Part shown: positions 1 to 62,086 of the stretch, piece by piece
How the letters are laid out: every line of letters starts with the position of its first letter
How positions within the stretch are numbered: position 1 is the stretch's first letter
IMG/VR virus record: IMGVR_UViG_3300042542_002528
Span: 1 to 62,086 of that record
DNA length: 62,086 nt
Direction: 5' to 3' (one strand)
Source of the DNA: a virus
Lineage: Duplodnaviria; Caudoviricetes
Notes under the pieces: model-generated
The model's input: only the letters and a program-made list of their open reading frames with translations
Databases searched by the model: none
What the model was told of the DNA's origin: nothing
Made by a program: the position numbers and the translations under genes

Positions 1-141
1 GGCTTGAGGTTGGCGTCATTGGCCTCGTTGTAAGCCGCTCGCCCCTTGGCATTCAGCCCGCCGTCTGGGTCTTGCCCTTCCTTGCGCGTCCAGATGAGCT
101 GGCGCACGCGGTTCCCGTCGCTATCCATCGTCGTCCTCGTC
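1..141. repeat. Terminal overlap: identical to 61838-61978 except one SNP (C114 vs T61951)
   Basis: Direct comparison of the window ends; indicates a circular or permuted genome of about 61,837 bp. Confidence 0.97.
123..141 (-). repeat. 19-bp start-associated direct repeat copy 1 (minus strand GACGAGGACGACGATGGAT = RBS + ATG)
   Basis: ATCCATCGTCGTCCTCGTC at 123-141, 472-490 and 61960-61978; 16-bp core also at 1019-1034. Confidence 0.95.
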
Positions 142-162
142 GGCCTTGTGGCCCTGTGGCGT

Positions 163-477
163 TTACTTCAGGAAGAACGGCGACACTGTCGACTTCTTGC
201 GGCCGTCCATTTGCTCGCGATACATCTGCCTGGGGGATGGTTTGCGTCCGTACTCCACGCCAAGGAGCGTTTCGTATGGGCCAGGAGACTGCCGCGAATA
301 CTGATCCGACAGCCTCTGCATGGCAGACTCAATGCCGCTGTGGTCCAAGCCAAGCCGCATGCTCTGCGCCTGCTCGTTAGCCACAGCGTTCGGCCACCCC
401 ATGCCCAGCAATCCCGTACGCAGAACGTCTGGGTCGCCATGCTTGATAAGCATGCGGATCATCTCGGCCTCATCCAT
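163..477 (-). CDS. Hypothetical protein (104 aa); variable gene absent from the haplotype at the window end
   Basis: ORF starts inside repeat copy 2 (GAGGA RBS); 142-490 is missing at the 61978/61979 junction. Confidence 0.8.
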   Translation of the reverse strand: MDEAEMIRMLIKHGDPDVLRTGLLGMGWPNAVANEQAQSMRLGLDHSGIESAMQRLSDQYSRQSPGPYETLLGVEYGRKPSPRQMYREQMDGRKKSTVSPFFLK

Positions 478-490
478 CGTCGTCCTCGTC
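472..490 (-). repeat. 19-bp start-associated direct repeat copy 2
   Basis: Identical to 123-141. Confidence 0.95.
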
Positions 491-541
491 AGTTATTCAC
501 ATTTCCCATGAGCTGCGCCGACGGCGGAGATCGAACTATCA

Positions 542-1021
542 TCACTGCCGTTTGGCGCTCACGGAAGTTTCCCTAAGTCCTTGTAGGCCATAGAGCCTCC
601 GCTCCAGCTCGTAGTCCCATTCACTCACTGGAGCACCGTTAGAGTAGCGCCGCATGTCCATTGCCGTCTCAGGCTTAATTGACGAGGGCGCCAGCACTCT
701 CCGGCGGCTGGGCTCGCCTTGGTACTGCTGCAATCGGTCAATAAATGAATCGATGGCTTGCGTGTGCTGATTGTCGGCCTTCACCTTCACCTCTCCGACT
801 GGATCGAACAGCCGGGCATACAGTTGCCCGATGCGCCTGTCCACAGGGTCGCGCCAGTCGCGGACGTTACCAGACTGTCGGCGGTTGGCGAATTTTTTTG
901 TTCGCGGGCCACGCGGCCGGCGGTACGGGTAGATATCGCCCGTGCCGAAGTCGTAGGTATCCCACTCCGCGGGCGTTTTGTTTGTGCGAGGGGCCCACAC
1001 ATCCATCGGCATTTCAGGCAT
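542..1021 (-). CDS. Hypothetical protein (159 aa)
   Basis: ORF starts at the GACGAGGACGACGATG repeat (1019-1034). Confidence 0.75.
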   Translation of the reverse strand: MPEMPMDVWAPRTNKTPAEWDTYDFGTGDIYPYRRPRGPRTKKFANRRQSGNVRDWRDPVDRRIGQLYARLFDPVGEVKVKADNQHTQAIDSFIDRLQQYQGEPSRRRVLAPSSIKPETAMDMRRYSNGAPVSEWDYELERRLYGLQGLRETSVSAKRQ

Positions 1022-1034
1022 CGTCGTCCTCGTC
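1019..1034 (-). repeat. 16-bp start-associated repeat copy 3
   Basis: CATCGTCGTCCTCGTC, identical to the core of copies 1 and 2. Confidence 0.9.
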
Positions 1035-1054
1035 GAAGAGAAAATAGAACGGGT

Positions 1055-1564
1055 TCAAAACAGCCGCCGCCCGTCCAAGTATTTGACGCCGTCCTCGGTG
1101 ACGAGCCGCGAGCCGTACTCAAATTGACGGGTGTTCGGGTTGAAGACGCCGATACCACCACCCTGCTGCGAAGGCGCGTCAGGCCGATCATACTGCGAGT
1201 CGTTCATGGCCTGGAGCCGCTTGAGCAAGCCCTCCTGCCGCATGGCCTCCATGTCCCGGGCAAAGCCCATCCGCCTGTTCTCACGGGACTGGGCGACACG
1301 GGAGTCGTTCTCGTCACGGAACGCCTCCTCCAGGTTGTCACCCATGCGCTCCAGAGGCGGCCGGTCGTCTGGCCGGGGAACGTGGACATGCAGCTCAGGG
1401 TTGGCGATGAGCTGGGGCTGCTGCTGCTGTTGGGCTGCAGGCTCGGCGGCCGGCTGGGCGGGCTGCTGGGGCGGGGCTTCACCACGGGACCGCCGCAGCC
1501 GGTCGGCTATGTACGCCTGCCGGCGGGCCTCCAAGACGGCATCGTAATTTGGATTTGCTCGCAT
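1055..1564 (-). CDS. Hypothetical Gln/Pro-rich protein, first gene of the leftward late region
   Basis: GGGAGG RBS upstream of ATG 1564 (MRANPNYDAV...). Confidence 0.75.
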   Translation of the reverse strand: MRANPNYDAVLEARRQAYIADRLRRSRGEAPPQQPAQPAAEPAAQQQQQPQLIANPELHVHVPRPDDRPPLERMGDNLEEAFRDENDSRVAQSRENRRMGFARDMEAMRQEGLLKRLQAMNDSQYDRPDAPSQQGGGIGVFNPNTRQFEYGSRLVTEDGVKYLDGRRLF

Positions 1565-1977
1565 GCGATCCTCCCTACAAAACCATTGCCCGACACACAT
1601 CAACTGCGTGCGTCAGGAGCTGCGGCAGGAGCAGAGTCAAGAAAAACACCTGACGCCCGGAGGGGTGAAAAACTCCGGGGGTGGATATGACATGAATCCG
1701 CTCTCGCGTCGGGGGGCCTACCGGGGGTGTGGGTGGGCATGCCGCAGCCCCCTTGCCATAGGCTGTAAGTCTAGGCCCAGCAACGGTTTCCGATTCCGCG
1801 GGCTAATGGCTGCGAATCCGCGTGGAATCTTACTTTTCCGTAAGGCTGGAATCCGCCGCGGCTGCGGGATGGCATGCATCGCCCCCCCCCTCTCGGCCCT
1901 ATACGCTTGTTCACTTTCCCGCCGGACACCTAGTATTTTGAGAATGGTGTACGCTTGTTCACCACCTGGCTGACGCA

Positions 1978-2017
1978 ACAAAAACGCCCCCGGGGTGGCG
2001 GTCCCCCGGGGGCGTTT
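1978..2017 (-). terminator. Rho-independent terminator downstream of 2040-2858
   Basis: Minus strand AAACGCCCCCGGGG-loop-CCCCGGGGGCGTTT followed by TTGTT. Confidence 0.75.
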
Positions 2018-2039
2018 GCTTTCCGGCTGTGCTGCTGTC

Positions 2040-2858
2040 TTATTCGATCCCGACCGCCTCGCGAACGTCCGCCGCACCGATCCCCTTCGGGAGCTTTTTC
2101 CGCACCGGCTGGATAGCGGGATTGGGCTTGGATCGGATGACACGCCGGATGCCCAGCGTGGGAACGTAGTGGGCGTTGTCCGACACTCGGTGCGGCACCT
2201 TGCCGACACGCTGGAACCGATACTCCACCCACCGCCGGATTTCGATTCGGGTGCGGTCTTCCAATCGCTCCACCACGTCTATCGTCCACCCACGCACGTT
2301 GCGGCGTTTCATCGCCCGGAACGTAGTCGGGGCATCGTCGGGTACGGCCGACACTCCGGGCCGCACCCTCAACGGCAGGCCGCGTGCCGACCGGGCGGCG
2401 GCGGCTGCGACACTCAACACAAGTTCGCCCGACACGCTTTCCACGGCGGCTACGATCCGGGCGGGGTCGGCCGACACGCTCCCCGCTCCTATCCCACGGA
2501 AACCCTCCGGGTCTCGGCGGCGGTCGGCCACCCGTTGCGTAGCTCCCTCGGCTCGCCAACAGCGTTTCCTAGCCCTGCCCGCATGGAACAGCATACCACG
2601 GAGGTGCCGACCGAGGTCGGACAACGTGGGCCCGAATAGGGTCCGGCCGTTGCGGGCGAGGGATTCAAGCTCACGGGCTGTCCAGTCATCGGCCATCCAT
2701 TCAACAAGGATCGACTGTTGCACATCGTCGAACTGATCGGCGGGGATTGGCGTTTCCCCGCTGGGCGAACCATGCCGCAGTAGATACCGGCGAAGCCGTT
2801 GCATAACGGCCTCCAAATCGGCGGCGGAGATATCGGCGGCGTTATAGCTGTCTGACAT
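2040..2858 (-). CDS. Hypothetical protein divergent from the early operon; N-terminus weakly resembles sigma region 2
   Basis: GGAGG RBS 8 nt upstream of ATG; own terminator; DQFDDVQQSIL motif (weak). Confidence 0.65.
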   Translation of the reverse strand: MSDSYNAADISAADLEAVMQRLRRYLLRHGSPSGETPIPADQFDDVQQSILVEWMADDWTARELESLARNGRTLFGPTLSDLGRHLRGMLFHAGRARKRCWRAEGATQRVADRRRDPEGFRGIGAGSVSADPARIVAAVESVSGELVLSVAAAAARSARGLPLRVRPGVSAVPDDAPTTFRAMKRRNVRGWTIDVVERLEDRTRIEIRRWVEYRFQRVGKVPHRVSDNAHYVPTLGIRRVIRSKPNPAIQPVRKKLPKGIGAADVREAVGIE

Positions 2859-2959
2859 TGTCATACCCTCCAAGTGTTTCCCCGGGCGTTACATTCCCGG
2901 CGGCGAATGAAACATAAAGAGTATCGGAATAGGTTTCAAGCCCACTCCAAAATTTTTTT

Positions 2960-3183
2960 CGGATTTCCCCCGGGGGTGTTTCCCATATCTAAACGTTCCC
3001 ACAAGGGAACAACGTCGCGAGTATCACACAAGCGACAACGGACGCGACGCACAGTTACACGCTGTGCGGCTACGTCCGTAACGACATGCGCGATGCGGCC
3101 AGTGCTGGTAATGCCATCCTGGCTGACGCAGTCGTAAACCGTCAGAAATATTCCCGGATTTCCCCCGGGGGTATTTCGCATAT
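2960..3183. promoter_or_regulatory. Two 29-bp direct repeats (2960-2988, 3155-3183) containing palindrome CCCCCGGGGG in the divergent intergenic region
   Basis: CGGATTTCCCCCGGGGGT(G/A)TTTC(C/G)CATAT, 2 mismatches, AT-rich flanks. Confidence 0.7.
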
Positions 3184-3489
3184 ATAAACGGCCGACAACG
3201 GCCCACAACGCGGGGAGTAACGTATTACTCTCACGCATGCGGGCAGCGTTAGGAGGTGTAACAATGGATCGATGGGACTGGGTGTATCTCACGGTCGTCA
3301 CGCAGTTGGCGGTGTGCGGCCGCGTCTCCGACGAGGAGTGTAACCGTCTGTGGGATGAGTACGGAATCTGACGACGCCCGATCCCGGGCAGGTGGCTGCG
3401 GCTAGCGGGCGATTGCCCAGGTAAGTCCGAATGCTGCCTGCTCGGGTTCGGTTGCCGTTGTGGTAGCCGGTTCTATCACGGAGGTGCGT

Positions 3490-4694: not shown

Positions 4695-4819
4695 CCTGCC
4701 CACTGTGTGACTGCGAGGAGGTTCAGTTTGCGGCGGTGCTGGGTGACGTAGGTCATGCCCGGTGCCGGGACTGCGGTATAGTGTACGCTTTTACACCAGA
4801 GGAGGGATGCGATGAGTAG
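4691..4819 (+). CDS. Small zinc-ribbon protein (42 aa; CPLC...CRDC)
   Basis: Hand translation MTCPLCDCEEV...RCRDCG; ATGA overlap and GGAGGA RBS. Confidence 0.65.
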   Translation: MTCPLCDCEEVQFAAVLGDVGHARCRDCGIVYAFTPEEGCDE

Positions 4820-5084
4820 CGCAACCATGCACCGCATCGCGCCGGTGCCGAATCTCAACGGCTCGCCTGCCCATTGTCTGATCGACCAGATGATGGAGGT
4901 TCACCGTGCCTTGGAGGCAGCGGCAGACTGCATACGGAAGTGGCAACCGCACTACAGGGACTACCAGATTAGCGGCGACTACCACGCCGACCGCGAAGAG
5001 TTCACGCGGCGGCTGCGGATGGTGGAGGAACTGGCGGCACAGTACGAGTCGGAGGCTTACACACTCTCAACACAGGAGCGATGA
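4812..5084 (+). CDS. Hypothetical early protein
   Basis: AGGAGG RBS; 90 aa. Confidence 0.75.
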   Translation: MSSATMHRIAPVPNLNGSPAHCLIDQMMEVHRALEAAADCIRKWQPHYRDYQISGDYHADREEFTRRLRMVEELAAQYESEAYTLSTQER

Positions 5085-6212: not shown

Positions 6213-6311
6213 ATGACTGTGCTTTCTTGGCAGCGATGCGAACGCTGTGGCTGGGAACTGGCGGCTCAGTACGAGTCGGAAGCGTATTCGATCAGCAAAC
6301 AGGAGGTGTGA
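6213..6311 (+). CDS. Small peptide (32 aa) sharing ELAAQYESEAY with the C-terminus of 4812-5084
   Basis: GGAG RBS; DNA repeat 6254-6305 similar to 5027-5078. Confidence 0.45.
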   Translation: MTVLSWQRCERCGWELAAQYESEAYSISKQEV

Positions 6312-6312
6312 C

Positions 6313-6789
6313 ATGGCCGATCAGACATACAACGGCTGGACCAATTACGAAACGTGGCTGGTCAGCCTGTGGATTGATAATTCAGAAGGCGAACAGCAGT
6401 ACTGGCATGACCGTGCTGCTTGGTGCCTGAAGCATCAGCCAGAAGAGGGTGATGCCGTGCATGAGCTGCGAGAAACACTTAGGGACGAGTTCGACTGCTC
6501 GTCGTACTTCTCGCTGCGGGCTGCACTTTCCGAAGTGAACTGGCAGGAGATTGCCGAGAACTACATCGATTCCATAGTGAAGGAGGAGTGCGGCGGCGGG
6601 ATCTGCGACGCCCGGCTCATTGCCGCTGCGCCTGAGTTGCTGGCTGTGGCCAAGCTGGCCTTTGATTATGCCCAAGACACTAAGGCCCGCTTCATCGACC
6701 ACTGGGACGGCGAAGACGCGGAGTCCTACGACAAGCTGTGCGATGCCATTGACGCAGCAATCAACAAGGCAGAAGGGAGGGATGAGTGA
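6313..6789 (+). CDS. Phage protein with YNGWTNYETW N-terminal motif fused to a DARLIAAAPELL module
   Basis: Both motifs recur in small phage early proteins; AGGAGGT RBS. Confidence 0.8.
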   Translation: MADQTYNGWTNYETWLVSLWIDNSEGEQQYWHDRAAWCLKHQPEEGDAVHELRETLRDEFDCSSYFSLRAALSEVNWQEIAENYIDSIVKEECGGGICDARLIAAAPELLAVAKLAFDYAQDTKARFIDHWDGEDAESYDKLCDAIDAAINKAEGRDE

Positions 6790-7875: not shown

Positions 7876-8066
7876 TGCTCCTTGGAAACGAGAACACAAG
7901 GGTGGCGCACTTCGGGAAGCGCCGCCGGATTGCGGTGACGTTTAAGCGAGTCGGTGGACTGTGGCGAGCGGCGCTTCTTGCCAAGCCGCAGCGTAGCCTG
8001 CGGGTGGCGAGGGACATGGTGCGCAAGGCGCTCGCTCAGTGGCACAAGGAACACGGAGGTGAGTGA
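7875..8066 (+). CDS. Basic hypothetical early protein
   Basis: AGGAGGTGCAGTGATG junction. Confidence 0.65.
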   Translation: MLLGNENTRVAHFGKRRRIAVTFKRVGGLWRAALLAKPQRSLRVARDMVRKALAQWHKEHGGE

Positions 8067-8308
8067 TGGGGGTCTACCATGAAAAGAACGAGACGATCTA
8101 TGAGAGCGACGACACGCTGGCGCGGGCGGTCATCTGCCGATTCGGCTCCGGCCTGCGCGTCCTGTGCGAACACAACCCCGACAGCAAGAGCGAGTACATG
8201 TATGTGACGTATGGAGAGACTTCACCGCTGACGCACAAGATGGCGGTGGAGATTGCCAAGCGGTTCGTAACCGGGCGGAAGATTCCCAAGAGACTGGAGT
8301 GGAGGTGA
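8066..8308 (+). CDS. Hypothetical early protein
   Basis: Starts in junction repeat. Confidence 0.7.
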   Translation: MGVYHEKNETIYESDDTLARAVICRFGSGLRVLCEHNPDSKSEYMYVTYGETSPLTHKMAVEIAKRFVTGRKIPKRLEWR

Positions 8309-8311
8309 CTG

Positions 8312-8800
8312 ATGGCTAAGTACCGCGTGCAGGACGAGGGTAGCAGCGATGATTTTGATGCGGCCGACGACGATGCCGCTGTCGCTTACGGCAAGCAGTG
8401 GCTGTGCGACGGTAGCTGGGATCGCGACCAGACGCTCTGGCTGCGCGCTTATGTGTTTCGCTTGCAGGAAGATGGCGAGGGTTACGAAATGATTGGCACT
8501 TCCCGCGCCACACTCCACCCCATCATGCCCAAGTGCGTGGGCGAGGAGCATGTCTGGTGTTCTCCGTACCACATTCTCGGAGGGATGAAGGAGAACCCTG
8601 GCGTGTGGGGCAACGGCGGGGGCGCTCGCATCAAGGAAGTCTGCAGCGAGTGCGGGGTGTACCGCGTCACCGATACCTGGGCAACCAACCCATGCGACGG
8701 CACTCAGGGCCACACTTCGGTGGAGTACCTTCCTGCAAACGCGGTGTCATCGGAGTGGGTTCAACAACTTGGTCGACCAGAGGAGGTGAGTGATGGCTAG
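8312..8800 (+). CDS. Hypothetical early protein (C/H-rich, possible Zn binding)
   Basis: Starts in junction repeat; C...H...CSEC motifs. Confidence 0.75.
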   Translation: MAKYRVQDEGSSDDFDAADDDAAVAYGKQWLCDGSWDRDQTLWLRAYVFRLQEDGEGYEMIGTSRATLHPIMPKCVGEEHVWCSPYHILGGMKENPGVWGNGGGARIKEVCSECGVYRVTDTWATNPCDGTQGHTSVEYLPANAVSSEWVQQLGRPEEVSDG

Positions 8801-9059
8801 CCCGCGCCGAAAGATTTCCCAAGAGGAACGCAAGCAGCGTGACGCGCTGATGCGGGTCCATAACTTTGTGATTGTGCTGGTTGTCCGCCGGCTGTTTGAT
8901 GAGGGCCGTGCGCCCTCCGAAGTAGCCGTTCTGTTCGACCGCATTCAGCGGGAGACGGGGCGGCTATGCCTCGCCCACGCGATGCCGGACTGGCACTACG
9001 TTGACGAGTCCCAGGTGGCGTGGGAGGTGTTTAATTGCGTGACCGAAGGAGGTGAGTGA
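8793..9059 (+). CDS. Hypothetical early protein
   Basis: Starts in junction repeat. Confidence 0.7.
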   Translation: MASPRRKISQEERKQRDALMRVHNFVIVLVVRRLFDEGRAPSEVAVLFDRIQRETGRLCLAHAMPDWHYVDESQVAWEVFNCVTEGGE

Positions 9060-9283
9060 TGGCTACGGCTAGAAAGAATCCGATTCCGTTCATAGTGGTG
9101 CTTCAAACCCCGGCGTATGGCACCCTCACCTGGGGGCCGTTCGTCAACCGGGCCGCAGCAACGGAGTTCATCCACGGCGGCGAGCTGAACAACCACATCA
9201 TCAACACCTACGAGCAGGCACCAGCCGGCATGGTGGTGTGGGAGCAGCCGCTGTATTCGGCAACCAAGAATGGAGGTGAGTGA
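9059..9283 (+). CDS. Hypothetical early protein
   Basis: Starts in junction repeat. Confidence 0.7.
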   Translation: MATARKNPIPFIVVLQTPAYGTLTWGPFVNRAAATEFIHGGELNNHIINTYEQAPAGMVVWEQPLYSATKNGGE

Positions 9284-9594
9284 TGCAACATGCACATGAT
9301 GCGACGATCATTCTCAACTACCAAGAGGCTGGCATACTGATGTCGGCGTTGGATCATGCTTTGTGCAAGCAGGGCAAGCCGTCTGCGGAAGAGCTGCAGG
9401 CAATTCGCCCGCTTGTGGACAGGATGGTATCCACGTTTGGGTTCCCGGCCGAACGGTTGGACAGGTTGTTGAAAGGTCAGAAGGTACACGTATACCGGGC
9501 GGCGTTCACAACCCAGCGTTCGTCGGATGCGTTTCGCCGGCGCATGCAAGGCATGCTGGATTCTCAGAAGCAACAGGAGGTGAGTGATGGCTAA
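9283..9594 (+). CDS. Hypothetical early protein
   Basis: Starts in junction repeat. Confidence 0.7.
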   Translation: MQHAHDATIILNYQEAGILMSALDHALCKQGKPSAEELQAIRPLVDRMVSTFGFPAERLDRLLKGQKVHVYRAAFTTQRSSDAFRRRMQGMLDSQKQQEVSDG

Positions 9595-9832
9595 GACTAA
9601 AGAAAGGTGGAGCCTGGAGAAGGCGTACCCGCCGATGCGCATGGTGGATTACATCCCGCTGCGACAGAAGGTTGTGGCGGAGTGGCTGCATTGCGCTGGC
9701 CTGACCTGCGGCGAGTACGACCTGACTCACATTGCTGAGATGATCGAAGCGGCTGTGGTGGATGAACTGAGATGCACCGCCCAAAGCCCGTGGCGTGCGG
9801 TGCGGGAACTCACACAGAAGGAGGCAGAGTGA
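9587..9832 (+). CDS. Hypothetical early protein
   Basis: Starts in junction repeat. Confidence 0.7.
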   Translation: MAKTKERWSLEKAYPPMRMVDYIPLRQKVVAEWLHCAGLTCGEYDLTHIAEMIEAAVVDELRCTAQSPWRAVRELTQKEAE

Positions 9833-10029
9833 TGGCGTTCGCCAAGCATCGGATGATTGAGTTCGACTACGAGCCTGGACACAAGTACCCGTACGTGTGT
9901 GTCGGGTGGTGCGAGGTGGGCGGGATGAACGTCGGCGACCGATTCACCGACGAGGTGGCCGAGGCTTTGATTGCGTATCTGAAAGACGAGATTCGGATCG
10001 TTGTCAACAAACCGGAGGGTGCGAAGTGA
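9832..10029 (+). CDS. Hypothetical early protein
   Basis: AAGGAGGCAGAGTGATG junction. Confidence 0.65.
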   Translation: MAFAKHRMIEFDYEPGHKYPYVCVGWCEVGGMNVGDRFTDEVAEALIAYLKDEIRIVVNKPEGAK

Positions 10030-10645: not shown

Positions 10646-11437
10646 ATGATCTACGGCTACGCTCGCGTGTCGACCGACAGGCAGGAGAACTCTGCCGACG
10701 CGCAGTCCGCTCGGCTTGTCGCCTACTGCGAGCAGTCCGGCCTGCCGTTCGGTGGCCTGTACGTGGACCAGGATCAGAGTGCCTACCGCATCCCGCTCAA
10801 TCGCAGGCGGGAGGGGAAGAAGTTGTGCGATGCCCTGCAGCAAGGCGACACCCTGGTCTTCACCAAGATCGACCGCGTCTTCAGGTCGTTGCAGGATCAG
10901 TGCAACACGCTGGCAAGGTGGGAATCACTGGGCGTGCAGGTCATCATCCTGGACATGCCGCTGCAGTACTCCGATCCGATGGGGCGCTGCACACTATCGG
11001 TCGGCGGCGCGTTCGCTCAGCTTTCGTCTGAGCTGACGGGCCAACGCATCCGTGAGGTCAACGCCCACCTGCGCCAGACTGGCAGGCCCTACTCCACCTC
11101 CAGACCGTTCGGTTGGGTGGTCAAGGACAAGGAGTACGTGCCGTGCGAGGCGGAGCGTGCGCTTGGCCGGCGTGCCTTGGAGATGAACGACCGCGGCGTC
11201 ACGCCGGCAGCTATCGCCTTGGCTTTCGTAAAGGAGGGGGTTGAGAAACCTCGCAAGATTCGGGGAAGGGCGGCGTGGTACAACGTCTCCGATATGTATT
11301 TTCTGATCCGTTCGGCGAGAGCCGGATTCCCAAAGCTGCCGCAACGGATGCCGCAAGGCGCCTGGAACGACGCGATGCAACGCGCAGTGGAATCTGGTGG
11401 TTCTCCGCCACCCAGTGAAGTGTCCGCCCGTGGATGA
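10646..11437 (+). CDS. Serine recombinase (resolvase/invertase catalytic domain with C-terminal extension)
   Basis: MIYGYARVSTDRQ catalytic Ser motif; KIDRVFRS motif; PFGW. Confidence 0.93.
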   Translation: MIYGYARVSTDRQENSADAQSARLVAYCEQSGLPFGGLYVDQDQSAYRIPLNRRREGKKLCDALQQGDTLVFTKIDRVFRSLQDQCNTLARWESLGVQVIILDMPLQYSDPMGRCTLSVGGAFAQLSSELTGQRIREVNAHLRQTGRPYSTSRPFGWVVKDKEYVPCEAERALGRRALEMNDRGVTPAAIALAFVKEGVEKPRKIRGRAAWYNVSDMYFLIRSARAGFPKLPQRMPQGAWNDAMQRAVESGGSPPPSEVSARG

Positions 11438-14016: not shown

Positions 14017-14234
14017 CCCTGCACCTTCAACAGTGCAGCAAGCAAGGCGTTGCACGCCGCTCGCACTGCCTCGTCCTGGTATCGATCTCGGACGGCGACC
14101 ACCGCCTCCACGGAGGAGAGGATGGTGTCGGGCTTGGCGCTGCGCCATTTGATCTTGCCGACGAGGGAGCTTCCGTACACACCAGCGATGGCAAGGGCCA
14201 ACGCGCACAACGACAGAATCTGATAAGTCGTCAC
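14013..14234 (-). CDS. Small membrane protein (73 aa)
   Basis: GTGA overlap with the S8 stop; TM ILSLCALALAIAGVYG. Confidence 0.68.
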   Translation of the reverse strand: MTTYQILSLCALALAIAGVYGSSLVGKIKWRSAKPDTILSSVEAVVAVRDRYQDEAVRAACNALLAALLKVQG

Positions 14235-15178
14235 AGGATTTTCGCTCCGGGAATAAAGATCGTCACGCCGTCTCGGGATGCGGTCACGCTGTAGAAGTTC
14301 ACCAACTTGTGCGGGTCTAGTAGCCCCCACCCGTACAGCGTGTCCTTGCCTGGGTCACCAACATCCCTGCACGTTTTCTCCAGCGCCTGCGTCACGGCGC
14401 TGTGATCGACCCTCTTCCCCTCTCGCTTCGCCGCTGACACGTACAGCGCGAGCGTCCCTGCAACGAACGGCGCGGCCATGCTGGTGCCGCTCACCGTTGC
14501 GTATCCCTGATTCAGCCATGTGCTTGTGATGCCCTCGCCCGGTGCGGCAACGGCGATCTCCTTGCCGCGGGAGGAGAACTGGCAGGCGTTGCCCGCCTTA
14601 TCCACCGCACCCACGCCAATCGTTTCCTTGTATGCGGCCGGGTAGTTCACCGACCCGCCGTCGTTCCCGGCGGCGCAGACGACGATGATGCCCGCGGCAT
14701 GTGCATCGCGAATCGCCTCATGCACGCGGTCGTCCGGGAGCGTTGAGCCAAGGGACATGCAGCAGATGTCGGCCTTGGCTTCGACTGCGTGCCGCACTGC
14801 AGTCGCCACTGCGTCGTTGCTACCCATGCCGCTGTGGCCCAGCACCTTGAGCGACAGAAGGCGAGCCGCGGGAGCGATCCCTTTCGACAGGCCAGACCTC
14901 GCGGCAATGATGCCGGCCACATGCGTGCCGTGCCCGACCGTGTCCACCACATCGGAGTCGGAGCTGAAGTTTCTCCAGTCCGCCACCGCGTCGATCAAAG
15001 CGCCGTGCTTGCTGATCCCGGTGTCGATCACCGCCACCGTCACGCCCTCGCCCTTGGTCTGCGACCAGAGCTGCGGTATGCCGTACGACTGCACGCCCCA
15101 GTCGACACCCTCAGAGAGAGAGTGCGGGACGTTGGCGAGGTCTACCCGGTAGGGCGGGAGATGAACGTAGCCGCTCAC
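14231..15178 (-). CDS. Subtilisin-family (S8) serine peptidase
   Basis: VAVIDTG (Asp), HGTHVAG (His), AAGN (oxyanion), GTSMAAP (Ser), YGWG. Confidence 0.97.
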   Translation of the reverse strand: MSGYVHLPPYRVDLANVPHSLSEGVDWGVQSYGIPQLWSQTKGEGVTVAVIDTGISKHGALIDAVADWRNFSSDSDVVDTVGHGTHVAGIIAARSGLSKGIAPAARLLSLKVLGHSGMGSNDAVATAVRHAVEAKADICCMSLGSTLPDDRVHEAIRDAHAAGIIVVCAAGNDGGSVNYPAAYKETIGVGAVDKAGNACQFSSRGKEIAVAAPGEGITSTWLNQGYATVSGTSMAAPFVAGTLALYVSAAKREGKRVDHSAVTQALEKTCRDVGDPGKDTLYGWGLLDPHKLVNFYSVTASRDGVTIFIPGAKIL

Positions 15179-22891: not shown

Positions 22892-23233
22892 TCAGCGGAA
22901 GTCGGCGATAAGCTCCTCTTCCGATTGCTTCTGCGAGCGCTGGCCGATGAGCTGCAGGCGGTTGACCTTCAGCACCATCTTGCTTTTCTTCTGACCGTCC
23001 TTCTCCCACTTCTGCTCCTCCAGCTCGCCCTGCACAATCACGGGCGTGCCCTTGGTGAGGTAGGGCAGCACACCGCCCGGCCTCCAGTGGTCGCAGTCCA
23101 AAAAGAACACGCTGTCCTTGCGGCCGTTGATCGCAACGCTGTAGCGAGCGACCTCCGACTCTCCGACCTGACGAGCCTCGGCGTCCTTGGTCAGGTTGCC
23201 GCTCGCGATGAAACACTGGAATGAACTAGCCAT
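22892..23233 (-). CDS. ssb: Single-stranded DNA-binding protein
   Basis: GNLTKDAE.R...YLTKG..V.VQGEL....WEKDGQKKSK OB-fold; acidic tail. Confidence 0.93.
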   Translation of the reverse strand: MASSFQCFIASGNLTKDAEARQVGESEVARYSVAINGRKDSVFFLDCDHWRPGGVLPYLTKGTPVIVQGELEEQKWEKDGQKKSKMVLKVNRLQLIGQRSQKQSEEELIADFR

Positions 23234-23900
23234 GCACCACCTCCTTGGTCTTGGGGTACTTCTTCTCCACTTCCTCCTTGCACCTGCGGAACACATCCGC
23301 AGGGATGACCTTCTCACGCACGCGCAGCTCCACCACGCTCAGGGCCTTGCGTGCGTCGACCTCGCTCTCCGCGGCAGCGATGGCGTCCAGGGCCGTCTGC
23401 TGGTAGACGAGCGCTTTCGACGCCTTGTCGGGGTCGACCGTCGCCTTGCCCACCTTGCGGAACGCCGACTCCTGCGGCTCGCTGACGCTGTTGCCGTCAT
23501 CGTCCGGCTCCCCGCTGAAGCCGCCGACGAGAGCCATCAGCAACGTCCGCTTGCCGTAGGTGATCGCGGCACCAAGGCCCTGCATGTCCTGCTTGTTCGT
23601 CCAGAGCGGGCAGATGCCAGTGATGTACTGCCCAGACGAGTGACGCAGCGTGCCGACCAGAACCCACTGACCACCGACCATGCCCGGCCGGAAGTCCGGC
23701 AGGGCCAGCCCGTTCTTGGTCAGCGGCCCCCGAAGCGAGTCGCAACAGGTTGCGTAGCTTGAGAACTTCGATTTGAAGTGCGGGTTGTCATCGTCCAGCC
23801 GAACGTGCTTGTACTCGCTCTGTGCCTTGGCGAGAGCCTTCGTCAGCTCCGACGTATCGGGTGACGACGACGGCCCCAAGATGTAGTTGTTGTCAGTCAT
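23226..23900 (-). CDS. erf: ERF-family single-strand annealing protein
   Basis: ALAKAQ...NPHFKSKFSSY...QGLGAAITYGKR...DDDGN. Confidence 0.9.
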   Translation of the reverse strand: MTDNNYILGPSSSPDTSELTKALAKAQSEYKHVRLDDDNPHFKSKFSSYATCCDSLRGPLTKNGLALPDFRPGMVGGQWVLVGTLRHSSGQYITGICPLWTNKQDMQGLGAAITYGKRTLLMALVGGFSGEPDDDGNSVSEPQESAFRKVGKATVDPDKASKALVYQQTALDAIAAAESEVDARKALSVVELRVREKVIPADVFRRCKEEVEKKYPKTKEVVHG

Positions 23901-24748
23901 AGAACCACCACCTCCTCCTGTGTCAGCGACCACGTAGGCATGACGATGTCCTGAATCTCGCCGTCATCGGCTTCCTCATAGATTCCCGTCTCCCGACGCA
24001 GACGCACCTCCTCCATCACGCGAGCCATCCGCAGACCCGCCTGCCTTACGAACTCTTCCGGCACGTACCGAACGCGACAGCCAAACGGCGGCACGCTCTG
24101 CACAAAGACGAACGGCATGCGGAATGGCTCGTAGCCGATGGCCTTGGCCCCCTCCACGTAAAACCACTCCTGCGCGTCGTAGCCGAACGAGCGGACGCTG
24201 AAGTGCAGCCGGTCCCAGGTAGCACTGGTCGTCTTCAAATCCCACCAGAGCGTGGGAGTACATCCATCGGGACGAACGCGGCAACGATGGCCGTTCAGTT
24301 CAAAGAACACCGACACCTGCGTCTCGGATGTGGCCTCAACAAGGGACCGCGCCTTCTTGTTGCGGAGCATCTTTGTGAGCATCCGCTCCATCCGCCACGC
24401 ATCCTCCGCGTTGACATCGATGACGCCCTTGGCCCTCGCCTCGTCCCTCCACTTCTCGTATGCGCCGCCGCGGCGGGCACCGTTGGATGCCAGCACACTT
24501 GCCGGCGGGATTTGGACGATGTCGGAGAAGGACTTGCCCTCGCACACCGCCATGACAAGAGCGTCATAGTTGGAGCCAAACGTGGTTGCGTTGTTGCCGG
24601 CGAAGAGCGAGTAGCCCTCGTCCAAATGCTCTTGGACATCCCCCCCGCCAACGCCAACGGCGGTCAAGTAGGACCGGCTGAGAAAATCGTTCGCCGCGTG
24701 GTAGTCGGCGTTCGGCATGCCGATGACCTTGCGTGGCAAGCTGTCCAT
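23897..24748 (-). CDS. RecE/exonuclease VIII-like PD-(D/E)xK exonuclease
   Basis: MPNADYHA..LSRS, RVRPD...DLKTT, YDAQ..FY; adjacent to ERF. Confidence 0.88.
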   Translation of the reverse strand: MDSLPRKVIGMPNADYHAANDFLSRSYLTAVGVGGGDVQEHLDEGYSLFAGNNATTFGSNYDALVMAVCEGKSFSDIVQIPPASVLASNGARRGGAYEKWRDEARAKGVIDVNAEDAWRMERMLTKMLRNKKARSLVEATSETQVSVFFELNGHRCRVRPDGCTPTLWWDLKTTSATWDRLHFSVRSFGYDAQEWFYVEGAKAIGYEPFRMPFVFVQSVPPFGCRVRYVPEEFVRQAGLRMARVMEEVRLRRETGIYEEADDGEIQDIVMPTWSLTQEEVVVL

Positions 24749-24752
24749 GCGT

Positions 24753-25025
24753 TCACTCCCCCTTAAAGACAAAGAAGCCCCGTCCGTGGGGCGCGAGCCG
24801 ATCCATCCATGCCCGTCCCTGGGCAACGTCCCTCCTGAACTGAGAACGCGCGCGTGCCAACTGTCCAAGGCACAGGAGCGTGAGAAATGCACCGGCCGCG
24901 TACAGGTAAACGCAGGCCAAGATCGCGATGCGCCACGCCCTGAAGAGCAGGGGGCGCATGTGCCGCCAGATGGCGGAAATCGCGGGAGCCAGACGGGCTC
25001 TATCCAATTGAGCTAGGGGTGCCAT
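24753..25025 (-). CDS. Small membrane protein, first gene of the recombination/replication operon
   Basis: TM IAILACVYLYAAGAFLTLLCL. Confidence 0.5.
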   Translation of the reverse strand: MAPLAQLDRARLAPAISAIWRHMRPLLFRAWRIAILACVYLYAAGAFLTLLCLGQLARARSQFRRDVAQGRAWMDRLAPHGRGFFVFKGE

Positions 25026-25118: not shown

Positions 25119-25922
25119 ATGAGCCTTCTTGACTTCGCCAGCCAGTACGCGACCACGGTCGGAGCCAGCCCCGGATACCGGGAGCAGCTTCTGGTCCTGT
25201 GCCGGCGTCTGCCTTGGCAGGCGACCGACCTGACCGTCGACAAGATCGACGCCTACTTGACCGATGCACTGAAGCATCTGGCTCCCTCCACCGTCCACAA
25301 CCACCGCCGCATGCTGTCCACACTGAGGAAAGCAGCCCTCCGCGACGGGTTGGTGAACGAGTGTACACGCCCCATTCGCAGAGTCAAGCACACCCTGCCG
25401 GTGGTCCGCGCTTGGGACCATGGGGAAATCCGACATCTTCTTGCGGTAGCCGCGGAGATGCCTGGGGGTACGGCGCGCTGCCAATACACGCTGCTGCTGC
25501 CCGCGTGGATTCTCTTCGGCTACAGCAGCGGGCTGCGCCTTGGCGACATGCTGGATGTCCGCTGGGACCAGCTCAGGGGCAACACCCTGGCGATCACCAT
25601 GCGCAAAACTGGGCAGCTTCATGTCGTCGTCCTTGACGTGCCAGCCATGCAGGGCATCGGCTCGCTCCCCCGCCGGGGGCCGAAGATTTTCGGCTCGCTC
25701 GTCGGAAGGTCACGGATGATAGTCGCACTGCGCCGCTTGATCAAGCGCGCGGGCCTAGCCGGAAGTGGCAAGTACCTGCGTCGATCCAGTGCCACTTACG
25801 CGGAAATGGCGGGCATAGACGCCAGTGGACACCTTGGGCACAGGACGCCCGGCATGAAGCGCCACTACCTAGACCCGGTGCTTCTGGCAATGCAAAAGCG
25901 GGCCGTCCCGTCTATCGGGTGA
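25119..25922 (+). CDS. Tyrosine recombinase/integrase (short, no arm-binding domain)
   Basis: SGLRLGD (Arg), KTG (Lys), KYLRRSSAT (HxxR variant), LGH...RHY (His, Tyr). Confidence 0.9.
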   Translation: MSLLDFASQYATTVGASPGYREQLLVLCRRLPWQATDLTVDKIDAYLTDALKHLAPSTVHNHRRMLSTLRKAALRDGLVNECTRPIRRVKHTLPVVRAWDHGEIRHLLAVAAEMPGGTARCQYTLLLPAWILFGYSSGLRLGDMLDVRWDQLRGNTLAITMRKTGQLHVVVLDVPAMQGIGSLPRRGPKIFGSLVGRSRMIVALRRLIKRAGLAGSGKYLRRSSATYAEMAGIDASGHLGHRTPGMKRHYLDPVLLAMQKRAVPSIG

Positions 25923-31148: not shown

Positions 31149-32132
31149 TTAGCTCCTGGCGGTTGTCCGTGCGTTGCGCTGCTGGTCACCCATCGCCTGC
31201 AGGCGGCGTACCTCGGCCATAATCTGCTGCGCCTGCGGCACCTCGCCGCCAGCCTTCCTGCGCATCTCATTGAGCTGGGCGAGGAGCGCCGAAGCCTGGG
31301 CGTGCGGGCTGTCCTGGTTGTCCTTGGCGTACGCCTGCGCCTGTGCGGGAGTGCGGGCGTTGGTGCGCTGGTTGGACTTGGACAGCAGCTCGTTGATCTG
31401 TGCCATCATCTGCGGAGCCTCGGGCACTTCGCCGCCAGCCTTCATCCTGCGGTTGTTGAGGTCTTTCATCAGCACCTCCGCCTGCTGGCGCGGGTCGTAT
31501 GCGCCCACGCCGGCGTCCGCCCGCTGCATCTCACGCCTGAGCAGATTACGCTTGACGTTCGCAGATTCTTTGGCGGCGACATCCGGCTCAGCCGACACAA
31601 CCGGTGCAGGGCGAGACTCGTTTGCAAGCTCGGCCGTCCCGCCAGTGGAGTCGATGTCCGCCGTCTTCTTCCCCGTCGCTGCGTACACGCCCGCCAGGCC
31701 CGCGACTGCGGCTGCGGGAGCTGCCTCGCGCAGGCCGACCTGCGACTTCTTGGTGGCGTTGTCGGCAGCGTCTCTGATTCCTTGACGAGCCACATCTACC
31801 AAGCCGCGGTCTTGGTTTCGCAGGTTGCCAGTGCGACCCTTCAGTATGTTGTCGTACGCCCGGGCCGACTTGTCCAAGTCATGCCACGCAGGTGATCCAA
31901 GCGAGAGGTCGGGGGCTGCTGGCGCATCGGGAACTTCCGGCGCTCGGTATGTGCCTCGCGGAATCCCGGCCCGGTCGTTGATCGCGTCGGCGTCCCGCAG
32001 GTCATCAAGGTACTTGTCCAGCCGCGCCTTCATGGCAACAGTGTCGACAGCATCGTCCATAACGCGGCCGGATCGGGCGGCATCGTCACCCTTGCCACGC
32101 AGCAGCCCGCGAATCATGTCGCCGTAATCCAT
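31149..32132 (-). CDS. Putative internal virion protein with duplicated KAGGEVP module
   Basis: Two copies of a ~33-aa repeat near the C-terminus. Confidence 0.7.
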   Translation of the reverse strand: MDYGDMIRGLLRGKGDDAARSGRVMDDAVDTVAMKARLDKYLDDLRDADAINDRAGIPRGTYRAPEVPDAPAAPDLSLGSPAWHDLDKSARAYDNILKGRTGNLRNQDRGLVDVARQGIRDAADNATKKSQVGLREAAPAAAVAGLAGVYAATGKKTADIDSTGGTAELANESRPAPVVSAEPDVAAKESANVKRNLLRREMQRADAGVGAYDPRQQAEVLMKDLNNRRMKAGGEVPEAPQMMAQINELLSKSNQRTNARTPAQAQAYAKDNQDSPHAQASALLAQLNEMRRKAGGEVPQAQQIMAEVRRLQAMGDQQRNARTTARS

Positions 32133-59945: not shown

Positions 59946-60164
59946 TCACTGCACATCTACCTCTGCCTCGGTTTCCACCCACACCCTGGCGCCGCAGGAC
60001 AGGGGGCTGTCAGGCTCGTACCGGATCACGCACGGGCCGTTGATTTTGACGCTATGGCCGTACTGGTTGGCCTTGTACGTCTTGACCGTCAGCACCGGCT
60101 CGCGTTCGCCGGTCTTATGATTCCGGCGGATAACGTGCTGGTTAACGTGGATTATGTGCTTCAT
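59946..60164 (-). CDS. Conserved small phage protein (IHVNQH.I..N.K.G...PV..VK...PLSCGARVWVET)
   Basis: Recurrent phage motif. Confidence 0.75.
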   Translation of the reverse strand: MKHIIHVNQHVIRRNHKTGEREPVLTVKTYKANQYGHSVKINGPCVIRYEPDSPLSCGARVWVETEAEVDVQ

Positions 60165-61698: not shown

Positions 61699-61965
61699 CT
61701 AGCAGTTCCACGCCCGGAGGGATTTGTTAATACGACTGTCGGGGTCTTTGGCCGTCTCTGAGCTTGTGAGCTTGTCCTTCATGCCCTGCATCCGTGCGCA
61801 AAAGGAATCTCGGCGAGGACCGCCACCCGGCTGTGGCGGCTTGAGGTTGGCGTCATTGGCCTCGTTGTAAGCCGCTCGCCCCTTGGCATTCAGCCCGCCG
61901 TCTGGGTCTTGCCCTTCCTTGCGCGTCCAGATGAGCTGGCGCACGCGGTTTCCGTCGCTATCCAT
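61699..61965 (-). CDS. DUF6321-like small phage protein
   Basis: WTRKEG....GGLNAKGR..YN...RRDSFCARM.GM...KDPDSRINKSLRAWNC; starts in the 19-bp repeat. Confidence 0.8.
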   Translation of the reverse strand: MDSDGNRVRQLIWTRKEGQDPDGGLNAKGRAAYNEANDANLKPPQPGGGPRRDSFCARMQGMKDKLTSSETAKDPDSRINKSLRAWNC

Positions 61966-62086
61966 CGTCGTCCTCGTCAGTTATTCACATTTCCCATGAG
62001 CTGCGCCGACGGCGGAGATCGAACTATCATCACTGCCGTTTGGCGCTCACGGAAGTTTCCCTAAGTCCTTGTAGGCCATAGAGCCT
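61838..62086. repeat. Terminal overlap, alternative haplotype: 1-141 joined directly to 491-598
   Basis: Direct comparison; last 127 nt identical to 472-598. Confidence 0.97.

What the first reader, a model, noticed from the sequence alone, without database searches (positions are those of the whole stretch)
123..1034. Gene-cassette array whose boundaries are the translation start signals, with one precise presence/absence event captured at the window ends
Seen: three consecutive genes (ATG at 128, 477, 1021) begin with the identical GACGAGGACGACGATG, and two copies match over 19 bp. The window end (61838-62086) repeats this locus but joins 141 directly to 491. It lacks exactly 349 bp: one whole gene (163-477), its spacer and one repeat copy, leaving the downstream gene with an intact RBS and ATG. 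A linked synonymous SNP (114 C vs 61951 T) suggests two real haplotypes. The end match to 472-598 is exactly 127 nt, consistent with a k=127 de Bruijn bubble (inference). Inference: an integron-like plug-and-play system in which crossover inside the RBS/ATG repeat adds or removes whole genes without breaking expression. It could be driven by the phage's ERF/RecE or by one of its two site-specific recombinases.
Basis: partly seen in the sequence, partly recalled or inferred. Interest (0 to 1): 0.85.

Follow-up and report, generated by a model that had tools for sequence, protein, structure and literature searches.

The report
Phage gene lost between repeated start signals
In a freshwater phage, three neighbouring genes begin with the same 16-letter ribosome-binding/start signal, and natural populations carry versions in which recombination between these short repeats has cleanly removed one whole gene, a tidy example of a known way that phage genomes gain and lose genes.

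Summary
The genes lie on the minus strand. GACGAGGACGACGATG ends in the ATG of three consecutive genes: A (DUF6321), B and C. The window end equals 1-141 joined to 491-598, with one synonymous SNP. The window is an IMG/VR phage record. It reads as a 61,488-bp circle plus the alternative branch of an assembly bubble.

The deletion is real. Contigs of two lake-water runs from different studies carry the 349-bp skip inside the 19-nt repeat. One run also holds the gene-B branch, at depth 6.5 against 26.4. A third study holds a 94-nt contig that joins gene A's start to the third repeat copy, so B and C are both absent.

The integron-like reading is only partly supported. I found no attC-like structure, no promoter or terminator, and no nearby integrase. 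The 16-mer occurs nowhere else in the genome. Gene B sits at the same place in a distant relative.

The repeat derives from the acidic-tail codons of a conserved micro-ORF that overlaps the next gene's start. Relatives carry different small genes at this spot.

Most likely this is a hyperplastic locus remodelled by short-homology recombination. The phage encodes ERF and a RecE-like nuclease. The closest known system is the T4-type PeSL cassette.

The parts
123..141 (-). Repeat copy 1: RBS (GAGGA), 5-nt spacer, ATG and GAT of gene A. The 16-mer is 126-141.
   Evidence: Exact copies listed.
472..490 (-). Repeat copy 2: the identical 19 nt at the start of gene B. It is the partner of copy 1 in the 349-bp deletion.
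   Evidence: In one search the joint 122->472 fits either side over 19 letters.
1019..1035 (-). Repeat copy 3 at the start of gene C (16-mer 1019-1034; 17 nt shared with copy 1). It is the only copy in its 'native' context, inside the micro-ORF.
   Evidence: The 94-nt contig of run X4 joins 113-125 to 1019-1099.
163..477 (-). Gene B, 104 aa, the present/absent gene. It belongs to a small conserved helical protein family with no Pfam, PHROG or PADLOC match.
   Evidence: 9 other relatives at 55-88% identity; no family; 5 helices, pLDDT 73.5; no PDB match.
542..1021 (-). Gene C, 159 aa, of unknown function. It is absent from all 80 DUF6321 loci and has 8 remote relatives in the wider protein library.
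1014..1058 (-). Micro-ORF (L/M)NPFYFLFDEDDDA*. It overlaps gene D's stop codon and gene C's ATG. Its acidic-tail codons are the first 13 nt of the 16-mer.
   Evidence: Homologous micro-ORFs occur in L007, L008, L014 and L202.
1055..1564 (-). Gene D, 169 aa. It is the first gene after the intergenic region 1604-2039. D-like genes precede the micro-ORF in relatives.
3..128 (-). The 5' part of gene A (DUF6321, 88 aa), in the gene-B-containing haplotype (C at 114).
61699..61965 (-). Complete gene A (DUF6321) in the deleted haplotype (T at 61951).
   Evidence: PF19846, E = 2.3e-21, 76.6 bits against a cut-off of 28.5.
61838..62086 (.). Terminal re-traversal of the locus in the deleted haplotype. 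The chimeric repeat is at 61960-61978 and the last 127 nt equal 472-598.
23226..24892 (-). ERF single-strand-annealing protein (23226-23933) and PDDEXK/DUF3799 RecE-like nuclease (23897-24892). These are candidate catalysts of short-homology recombination.
   Evidence: PF04404 at 32.8 bits against cut-off 25; PF12684 at 32.4 bits against cut-off 26.
10646..11437 (+). Serine recombinase (resolvase). It is the candidate for the rival site-specific explanation only.
   Evidence: 103 bits.

Best explanation
The locus is a hyperplastic slot at the head of the phage's late (virion/ejected-protein) operon. It lies between a conserved micro-ORF that follows gene D and the DUF6321 gene A. Small accessory genes (C and B here, others in relatives) sit in this slot.

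In this phage each of them, and A, starts with the same 16-19 nt: RBS GAGGA, then CGACG, then ATG(GAT). That sequence is a duplicated piece of the ancestral junction 'acidic tail of the micro-ORF / ATG of the next gene'.

Because the copies are perfect direct repeats, rare homology-driven recombination between them removes exactly one repeat plus everything between. Candidate routes are single-strand annealing by the phage's ERF plus RecE-like nuclease, or replication slippage. The downstream gene is left with an unchanged start signal.

Shown: the repeats, the precise 349-bp loss of gene B in natural populations, the two haplotypes, and variable gene content in relatives.

Inferred: the enzymology; that B-minus is the derived state; and that genes also enter by the same route.
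For: 1. The junction lies inside a 19-nt perfect repeat, with no letters added or lost (table 5: 'skips 349', both = 19).

2. Independent contigs (k=31, Logan) carry the junction. In run X1 it is a 3225-nt contig at depth 26.4; in run X2, a different study, a 1795-nt contig at depth 7.0. X1 also holds a 365-nt contig of the gene-B branch (84-448, no differences) at depth 6.5. X4, a third study, holds 113-287, which includes part of gene B.

3. A 94-nt contig in X4 reads 113-125 followed by 1019-1099. That is gene A's start joined through repeat copy 3. The 13 loose letters occur only at 113 in the window.

4. Origin of the repeat: copy 3 lies in the micro-ORF LNPFYFLFDEDDDA*. This is homologous to MFDFLFDDDWDE* (L008), MFDFLFDDDWDDGL* (L007), FDFLFDDDWEID* (L014) and WWFLFEERDED* (L202). 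In each of those, the micro-ORF's stop overlaps the next gene's ATG. Copies 1 and 2 lack the FLF part.

5. Gene content between the D-like gene or flank and A differs among relatives. L008 has none, L007 has X, L014 has Y+X, L202 has B, and L006/L011 have other genes plus X.

6. B-next-to-A is also found in L202/L203 at 58% identity, so B-plus is probably ancestral.

7. ERF and a PDDEXK nuclease are encoded side by side.

8. Each deletion-bearing contig has exactly one mismatch next to the joint. Contigs start or stop at 84 and 113, as expected for a k=31 bubble opening at the SNP at 114. This fits a single, inherited, rare event.

9. The passages I read in PMC3945230 put efficient Red-beta pairing at 23-27 bp, longer than these repeats.
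Against: - No enzyme is tied to the event. Slippage, host RecA-independent recombination and ERF annealing give the same product.
- Run X1 may be the sample the record was assembled from, so only X2 and X4 are independent.
- The third junction rests on one 94-nt contig at depth 3, with 2 mismatches. It could be an ancestral D|A arrangement rather than a deletion.
- Perfect identity of 13 non-coding nt in three copies is not explained by neutral duplication alone. In relatives the start regions of adjacent genes differ. Selection or gene conversion must also act.
- Contigs cannot give true haplotype frequencies.
- The position of the single mismatch in the deletion contigs was inferred, not printed.
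Confidence: 0.7

Rival explanations
1. A true two-way cassette system of the PeSL type. Recombination between start-signal repeats excises small circles (349, 544 or 893 bp). These can re-insert at any copy of the repeat in co-infecting genomes, so the repeats are maintained because they mobilise genes.
For: - Three junction types use all three copies as seen from gene A.
- Module sizes are exact repeat-to-repeat distances.
- Gene C plus its spacer plus one repeat looks like an insertion relative to L202, L007, L008 and L014.
- PeSL mini-circles with crossovers between SD/ATG and the -10 box are documented in T4-type phages (passages of PMC2839356).
- The locus is hyperplastic in relatives.
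Against: - No 'goes back' joint (circle junction) appeared in the four runs laid. Contigs would hardly show a rare form, so this is weak.
- The 16-mer is nowhere else in the genome.
- Among the rows shown for other viral contigs, all have single copies except one giant-virus contig.
- In the only accessible foreign context, B is syntenic.
- The deletion seems linked to one SNP allele.
Confidence: 0.2
2. The three start regions are identical because of function, and deletions are just a side effect. The function could be a shared translational operator, or a requirement for equal, coupled translation of virion-dose proteins.
For: - The phage has a second, unrelated family of stereotyped junctions. 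GGAGGTGAGTGATG occurs at 6 consecutive early-gene junctions, against 0.51 expected.
- The same 14-mer forms arrays in other viral contigs: L205 has 8 copies and L217 has 7. Selection can therefore clearly standardise gene junctions.
- In relatives the shared N-terminal leader is kept at the protein level: L007 has 15 of 16 residues identical, 9 of them with different codons.
Against: - Only GAGGA in the 16-mer pairs with the anti-SD. The other 8 upstream nt are also identical, and they match micro-ORF coding sequence, which points to common descent.
- Relatives do without identical start regions.
- No RNA family or stable structure was found.
Confidence: 0.25
3. Site-specific (integron-like) recombination: the resolvase or a tyrosine recombinase recognises the 16-19-nt site and excises or integrates cassettes.
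For: A resolvase is encoded at 10646-11437. There is a weak Phage_integrase-like hit at 25425-25658. The excision is precise.
Against: - There is no dyad symmetry or inverted repeat in or beside the copies.
- The spacers do not fold better than shuffles (z = 0.08, -0.53, 0.87).
- The tyrosine-recombinase hit is below the cut-off (17.1 against 27.1 bits).
- Both recombinase genes are far away, in other modules.
- Similarity between copies ends sharply at the 16-19 nt, shorter than the sites I recall for serine recombinases (recalled, not tested).
- Precision is equally expected from homology.
Confidence: 0.06
4. Assembly or sequencing artefact: a chimeric join across a short repeat.
For: The record's ends are unusual, and IMG/VR classes it 'linear'.
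Against: - A 19-nt repeat cannot collapse at k=127 or k=31.
- Junction contigs occur in two studies at depths 26.4 and 7.0, with a linked mismatch.
Confidence: 0.02

Closest known systems
PeSL (promoter-early stem-loop) cassettes of T4-type phages (Arbiol et al. 2010, PMC2839356, passages read; Comeau et al. 2014, PMC4122927, abstract read)
   Same: - Repeated regulatory motifs that include the SD and ATG flank small ORFan genes in hyperplastic regions.
- Recombination between neighbouring copies deletes whole ORFs and leaves one chimeric motif and intact expression signals.
- Differences between close relatives map to these motifs.
   Different: - Here the repeat is only 16-19 nt (RBS, spacer and ATG), with no promoter and no stem-loop or terminator.
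- There are three copies at one locus of a late operon, in an unrelated roughly 61.5-kb freshwater phage.
- The repeat derives from micro-ORF coding sequence.
- Mini-circles and insertion are not shown.
Deletion between short direct repeats in phage genomes by slippage or single-strand annealing, and relaxed recombination by Rad52-like SSAPs (De Paepe et al. 2014, PMC3945230, passages read)
   Same: There is precise loss of one repeat plus the interval, with the junction inside perfect homology. The phage encodes an ERF-family SSAP with a partner nuclease.
   Different: The repeats are shorter than the 23-27 bp quoted there for efficient Red-beta pairing. They coincide with three translation starts, so the product is always a clean whole-gene deletion.
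Integron gene cassettes (IntI / attI / attC)
   Same: Promoterless genes in one orientation, added or removed as units at a repeated boundary.
   Different: There is no integrase next to the array, no attC-like folded sites, and the boundary lies at the 5' start signal rather than the 3' end. See the membership test.
T4 internal-protein genes with a shared capsid targeting sequence (review PMC3012670, passages read)
   Same: - Diverse small proteins are encoded beside head genes.
- In relatives (L006, L007, L011, L014, L202), otherwise different neighbouring proteins share an N-terminal leader MD.(E/D)GD.(I/V)R.L.
- The neighbourhood holds polyvalent-protein domains: DUF6321, and an ART-PolyVal-like gene below the Pfam cut-off.
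   Different: Packaging, cleavage and any targeting role of the leader are untested. In this window the leader similarity between A and B is weak, and C lacks it.

Membership tests
Integron | A tyrosine recombinase (IntI) encoded next to the array, with attI and a promoter | tested here: not met
   PF00589 gives only 17.1 bits (cut-off 27.1), at 25425-25658, about 25 kb away. No promoter-like site lies beside the copies.
Integron | attC sites: imperfect inverted repeats that fold as hairpins at cassette 3' ends | tested here: not met
   There is no inverted repeat at or beside the copies. The folds of the three spacer-plus-repeat regions have z = 0.08, -0.53 and 0.87 against shuffles.
Integron | Promoterless cassettes in one orientation, present or absent as units | tested here: met
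   B (and possibly B+C) are absent as exact units. All genes are on the minus strand.
PeSL-type regulatory cassettes | A composite motif with an early promoter and a stem-loop terminator | tested here: not met
   The consensus scan finds none in 1-1100, and there is no significant structure.
PeSL-type regulatory cassettes | A repeated motif including SD and ATG flanks small genes, and crossover within it deletes them | tested here: met
PeSL-type regulatory cassettes | Excised mini-circles exist | not testable with these tools
   Only Logan contigs were available, and no back-joint was listed. Rare forms are dropped from contigs.
Short-direct-repeat (homology-mediated) deletion | The product retains one repeat copy, the junction lies inside perfect identity, and there are no filler letters | tested here: met
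   (exact 141|491 join). (both = 19, no letters between).
Short-direct-repeat (homology-mediated) deletion | Dependence on an annealing protein or on replication slippage | not testable with these tools
   ERF and the PDDEXK nuclease are present, but no functional test is possible.
DUF6321 (gene A) | Pfam PF19846 match above the gathering score | tested here: met
   76.6 bits against 28.5, residues 19-86.
Capsid-targeted internal/ejected proteins (T4 CTS-like) | A conserved N-terminal leader on otherwise unrelated proteins encoded by the head module | tested here: inconclusive
   The leader is clear in relatives: L007 has 15 of 16 aa identical, 9 with different codons. The matching figure is 10/16 in L006 and L014, 7/16 in L011 and 6/16 in L202. 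It is weak for B/A in the window (2/16 ungapped) and C/A is also 2/16, i.e. C lacks it.
Capsid-targeted internal/ejected proteins (T4 CTS-like) | Leader-dependent packaging and cleavage by the prohead protease | not testable with these tools
   This needs virion proteomics.

The most novel reading that the evidence does not exclude
The slot upstream of the DUF6321 gene is a dedicated 'plug-in' site for small virion-delivered accessory proteins. Every gene that lands there receives a standard start module. In this phage the module is a 16-19-nt RBS/ATG unit copied from the micro-ORF junction. In relatives it also includes an N-terminal leader (MDSEGDKIRxL) that could act as a capsid-targeting or processing signal. 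ERF-type annealing within this module both inserts genes (via small circles or co-infecting relatives) and removes them without disturbing expression. That would combine the logic of T4 internal-protein leaders with PeSL-type shuffling in a minimal form.
Probability: 0.18. Interest if true: 0.75.

Novelty: new variant of a known kind. Interest (0 to 1): 0.48.

Why it matters
This is a clean natural example, caught as a polymorphism in lake metagenomes from more than one study, of how phage accessory genes are lost without damaging neighbouring expression. The crossover sits in a duplicated translation-start signal.

It shows that motifs as short as 16-19 nt, far simpler than PeSLs, can define gene-sized modules. 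It also traces the motif to a conserved micro-ORF that appears to couple translation between genes.

For metagenomics, it documents how such a bubble turns a circular phage genome into a 'linear' record with mismatched ends. If the leader/start-module idea holds, it would point to a general way in which phages keep a swappable set of injected proteins.

Tried and rejected
- **Nucleotide search in named phages.** A blastn search of window 1-3000 against 50,697 phage records found no match.
- **Single-protein scans of IMG/VR.** Scans with B and with C found no relative. An alignment of B relatives found one viral contig (L202) and one metagenome contig (L203), apparently the same phage. An alignment of C relatives found one contig (L219) with a C-like gene among other genes. 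I listed ORFs only for 1-3000 of its 4684 nt and did not search it for DUF6321.
- **Exact 16-mer in IMG/VR.** Only part of the rows were shown, and all of those had single copies except one giant-virus contig with two. Because GACGAGGACGACGATG also reads as acidic codons, these are treated as chance.
- **Exact 19-mer of the early-gene junction.** There were 15 contigs, each with one copy. One of them (L209) is the contig of relative L006.
- **Circle junction.** Read laying listed no back-joint in the 4 runs. Contigs drop rare forms, so this says nothing either way.
- **Uncovered parts in runs X2-X4** (for example 135-469 in X2 and X3) are not evidence of absence.
- **Function of B.** There was no Pfam, PHROG or PADLOC hit, no ESM Atlas lead, and no PDB fold match at E <= 0.001.
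- **Known RNA families.** Rfam found nothing in 1-2000 at E <= 1. ARAGORN found no tRNA in the window.
- **Direct terminal repeat rejected.** The two copies differ by the deletion, and depth in 1-134 is not doubled in X1.
- **A, B and C as paralogues rejected.** Apart from the first few residues, the proteins are unrelated.
- **Literature.** A search for 'DUF6321' gave 0 papers. A six-term search for RBS/direct repeats/gene boundaries/phage/deletion/mosaic listed 12 of 28 papers, none on this theme by title or abstract. Any statement that this variant is not in print rests only.
Full report
**What is there**

The window is a single IMG/VR virus record of 62,086 bp. IMG/VR classes it as 'linear' and CheckV estimates it as 100% complete.

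All genes of the locus are on the minus strand. In transcription order they are:
- D (1055-1564, 169 aa);
- a 14-codon micro-ORF (1014-1058);
- C (542-1021, 159 aa);
- B (163-477, 104 aa);
- A (3-128, complete at 61699-61965, 88 aa).

These are followed by a 225-aa gene, an ART-PolyVal-like gene (28.9 bits, below the Pfam cut-off of 31.2) and head genes. Among the head genes, 57752-58861 matches a major-head-protein PHROG at 2.2e-08. A is a DUF6321 protein (76.6 bits against a 28.5 cut-off). B, C and D match no Pfam, PHROG or PADLOC family.

**The observation**

Window 1-141 equals 61838-61978 except for C/T at 114/61951. Window 491-598 equals 61979-62086. So 349 nt are missing at the end of the window.

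The longest suffix of the window that recurs elsewhere is exactly 127 nt (472-598). The longest such prefix is 113 nt, stopping at the SNP.

The 16-mer occurs exactly at 126, 475 and 1019, plus the terminal duplicate at 61963, each time ending in the ATG of A, B or C. With up to 3 mismatches there are 10 matches against 0.85 expected, and 0 of 100 shuffles reach 10.

A and B share 19 nt. A and C share 17 nt. The SNP is synonymous.

Read as a de Bruijn path, 472-61959 closes into a 61,488-bp circle, and 1-471 is the other branch of a bubble. The k=127 value is an inference from the 127-nt overlap.

**Is the deletion real?**

Yes. Twenty-four runs from 19 studies share words with 1-1100. All are water metagenomes kept as Logan contigs. 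I laid four of them on 1-2000.

- **Run X1** holds 0.95 of the words and is possibly the source sample. It holds a 3225-nt contig (depth 26.4) that goes 84-122 then 472-2000: a skip of 349 nt that fits either side over 19 letters. It also holds a 365-nt contig (depth 6.5) covering 84-448 without any difference, which is the gene-B branch.
- **Run X2**, from a different study, holds a 1795-nt contig (depth 7.0) with the same skip. No gene-B contig was laid from it.
- **Run X4**, from a third study, holds contigs covering 1-141 and 113-287, so gene B is present there. It also holds a 94-nt contig (depth 3, 2 mismatches) covering 1019-1099 and preceded by 13 loose letters. Those letters are exactly window 113-125, and that string occurs nowhere else in the window. 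This is gene A's start joined through the third repeat copy, with B and C both absent.

At k=31 a 16-19-nt repeat cannot create such joins by graph collapse.

Each deletion contig has one mismatch beside the joint. Contig ends at 84 and 113 fit a bubble that opens at position 114. I therefore infer, but did not see printed, that the deletion is linked to the T allele in both studies.

**What the repeat is**

Upstream of the three ATGs, similarity stops sharply 13 nt (for C against A, 14 nt) before the ATG.

Only copy 3 has a wider context. It lies in the micro-ORF (L/M)NPFYFLFDEDDDA*, which overlaps D's stop codon and C's ATG. Relatives found through gene A carry homologous micro-ORFs just after a D-like gene:
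- MFDFLFDDDWDE* in L008;
- MFDFLFDDDWDDGL* in L007;
- FDFLFDDDWEID* in L014;
- WWFLFEERDED* in L202.

In each relative the micro-ORF's stop codon overlaps the ATG of the next gene. That is 4 of 81 loci examined with my pattern. Most of the 81 are distant relatives.

So the 16-mer is 'acidic-tail codons of the micro-ORF plus the next ATG'. Copies 1 and 2 are orphan duplicates of that junction.

The spacers contain no promoter-like or terminator-like site. They have no structure beyond shuffles (z = 0.08, -0.53, 0.87), no local dyad and no Rfam match.

**Relatives**

Gene A found 596 relatives, of which 80 loci were kept. tblastn against these 80 found A in 80, B in 0, C in 0, D in 4, the 225-aa gene in 2 and the ART-like gene in 5.

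None of the 14 A-homologue start regions I printed carries the 16-mer.

Gene content between the D-like gene (or the conserved upstream flank) and A differs in every relative I read:
- L008: nothing except the micro-ORF;
- L007: a 51-aa gene X;
- L014: a 90-aa gene Y, then X;
- L006 and L011: other genes, then X;
- L202: a B homologue.

B has 9 other relatives in the large protein collection, at 55-88% identity. The only context I could read (L202 and L203, apparently one phage) has D-like, then micro-ORF, then B, then A, without C. The start regions there differ from each other. So B next to A is old, and the B-less form here is most simply a loss.

C has only remote relatives: 8 at E <= 0.001, with 31-46% identity. 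One of them lies in a different phage context (L219).

**A further pattern in relatives**

In 5 of 81 loci the gene directly upstream of A begins with A's own N-terminal peptide. In L007 the two genes share 15 of 16 residues, 9 of them with different codons. The figure is 10/16 in L006 and L014, 7/16 in L011 and 6/16 in L202.

This peptide is therefore conserved as protein, not just as DNA. In the window the B/A similarity is weak (2/16 ungapped; it looks better with one gap, by eye) and C lacks it.

This recalls the shared capsid targeting sequence of the diverse T4 internal proteins (passages of PMC3012670). It also fits the prediction that phage polyvalent-protein domains are packaged and injected (passages of PMC5512222).

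**How it most likely works**

The product is one repeat copy kept, the interval lost, and no filler letters. That is the signature of homology-driven deletion between direct repeats.

The phage encodes an ERF-family annealing protein (32.8 bits, cut-off 25). Overlapping it is a PDDEXK/DUF3799 RecE-like nuclease (32.4 bits, cut-off 26). A helicase lies nearby. Annealing at 16-19 nt after resection, or replication slippage, would give exactly this product.

The passages I read in PMC3945230 quote 23-27 bp as the minimal efficient pairing segment for Red-beta. Events at 16-19 nt should therefore be rare. This fits a deletion that appears to be inherited together with one SNP allele across studies.

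A site-specific mechanism is not excluded but has nothing specific in its favour. One resolvase (103 bits) lies in the early region. A tyrosine-recombinase signal about 25 kb away is sub-threshold at 17.1 bits.

**Why are the three copies identical?**

Descent from the micro-ORF junction explains the sequence. It does not explain perfect identity, given that relatives tolerate different start regions.

The phage shows a second, unrelated set of stereotyped junctions in its early genes. GGAGGTGAGTGATG occurs at 6 consecutive junctions (8055-9589) against 0.51 expected. The same 14-mer forms arrays in other viral contigs. So selection on translation signals can standardise junctions.

Either selection or conversion by the recombination system, or both, may keep the copies identical. 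This remains open.

**Comparison and verdict**

The closest known system is the PeSL cassette of T4-type phages. There, recombination between repeated motifs deletes ORFans and forms mini-circles, with crossovers mapped between the SD/ATG and the -10 box (PMC2839356 passages; PMC4122927 abstract).

This locus works like a stripped-down version of that. It has no promoter or stem-loop, only three copies, a late operon, and a different phage lineage. It fails the defining integron features.

I rate it a new variant of a known kind. It is real and neat, and of moderate interest. It is overstated as an integron-like system. Insertion, circles and the responsible enzyme remain untested.

Noticed in passing
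window 8055-9589 (+), also 9819-9835: Six consecutive small early genes are joined by the same junction, GGAGGTGAGTGATG (one copy has 1 mismatch). It combines an extended SD, a TGA stop and an overlapping ATG. Three copies are identical over 19 nt (AGGAGGTGAGTGATGGCTA at 8781, 9047, 9575). A seventh, looser copy lies near 9819.
   Followed up: partly
L205 428-2303; L217 8739-11137; L207; L210: The same 14-mer junction forms arrays in other IMG/VR contigs: 8 copies within 1.9 kb in L205, 7 in L217, 4 in L207 and 3 in L210. Arrays of tiny genes with one standard junction are therefore not unique to this phage.
   Followed up: no
window 1014-1058 (-); L007 ~1894-1940; L008 ~820-860; L014 5550-5591; L202 ~1470-1523: A conserved micro-ORF (aromatic-FLF core plus acidic tail, 12-16 aa) is wedged between the D-like gene's stop and the next gene's ATG, overlapping both. 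It is possibly a translational coupling relay or a micro-protein.
   Followed up: partly
L006, L007, L011, L014 (X at 5862 or 1928; A at 6001 or 2067); L202 1522 and 1818; window 31149-32132 (-): Neighbouring, otherwise different genes share the N-terminal leader MD.(E/D)GD.(I/V)R.L. A 327-aa gene elsewhere in the window starts MDYGDMIRGLL, which resembles gene B's MDEAEMIRMLI. That resemblance may be chance.
   Followed up: partly
window 60161-61006 (-); L202 2085-3797 and 4540-5223: The ART-PolyVal-like protein starts ...DDAGDAVRRTIRAYHG. In L202 both a 570-aa and a 227-aa protein start with a similar ...AGDAVR... stretch. This is another case of a shared N-terminal segment on different proteins of this module, seen by eye only.
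   Followed up: no
window 1659-1696: A roughly 35-nt segment in the intergenic region upstream of gene D is also held by other, often more abundant contigs in all four runs. It shows as a depth spike with loose ends on both sides. It contains a CCCGGAG...CTCCGGG hairpin followed by a T-run on the minus strand, so it looks like a terminator.
   Followed up: no
window 2948-2995 and 3143-3190: There are two 48-nt copies (83% identical) containing the palindrome CCCCCGGGGG, in the divergent intergenic region between the minus-strand and plus-strand gene blocks. They are possibly regulatory sites or terminators.
   Followed up: no
window 5027-5078 and 6254-6305: A 52-nt direct repeat (79% identical) links the 3' end of ORF 4812-5084 with the 5' end of ORF 6247-6789. 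Both encode ELAAQYESEAY.
   Followed up: no
window 14231-15178 (-): A subtilase-family peptidase (Peptidase_S8, E = 3.8e-54) is encoded in the phage.
   Followed up: no
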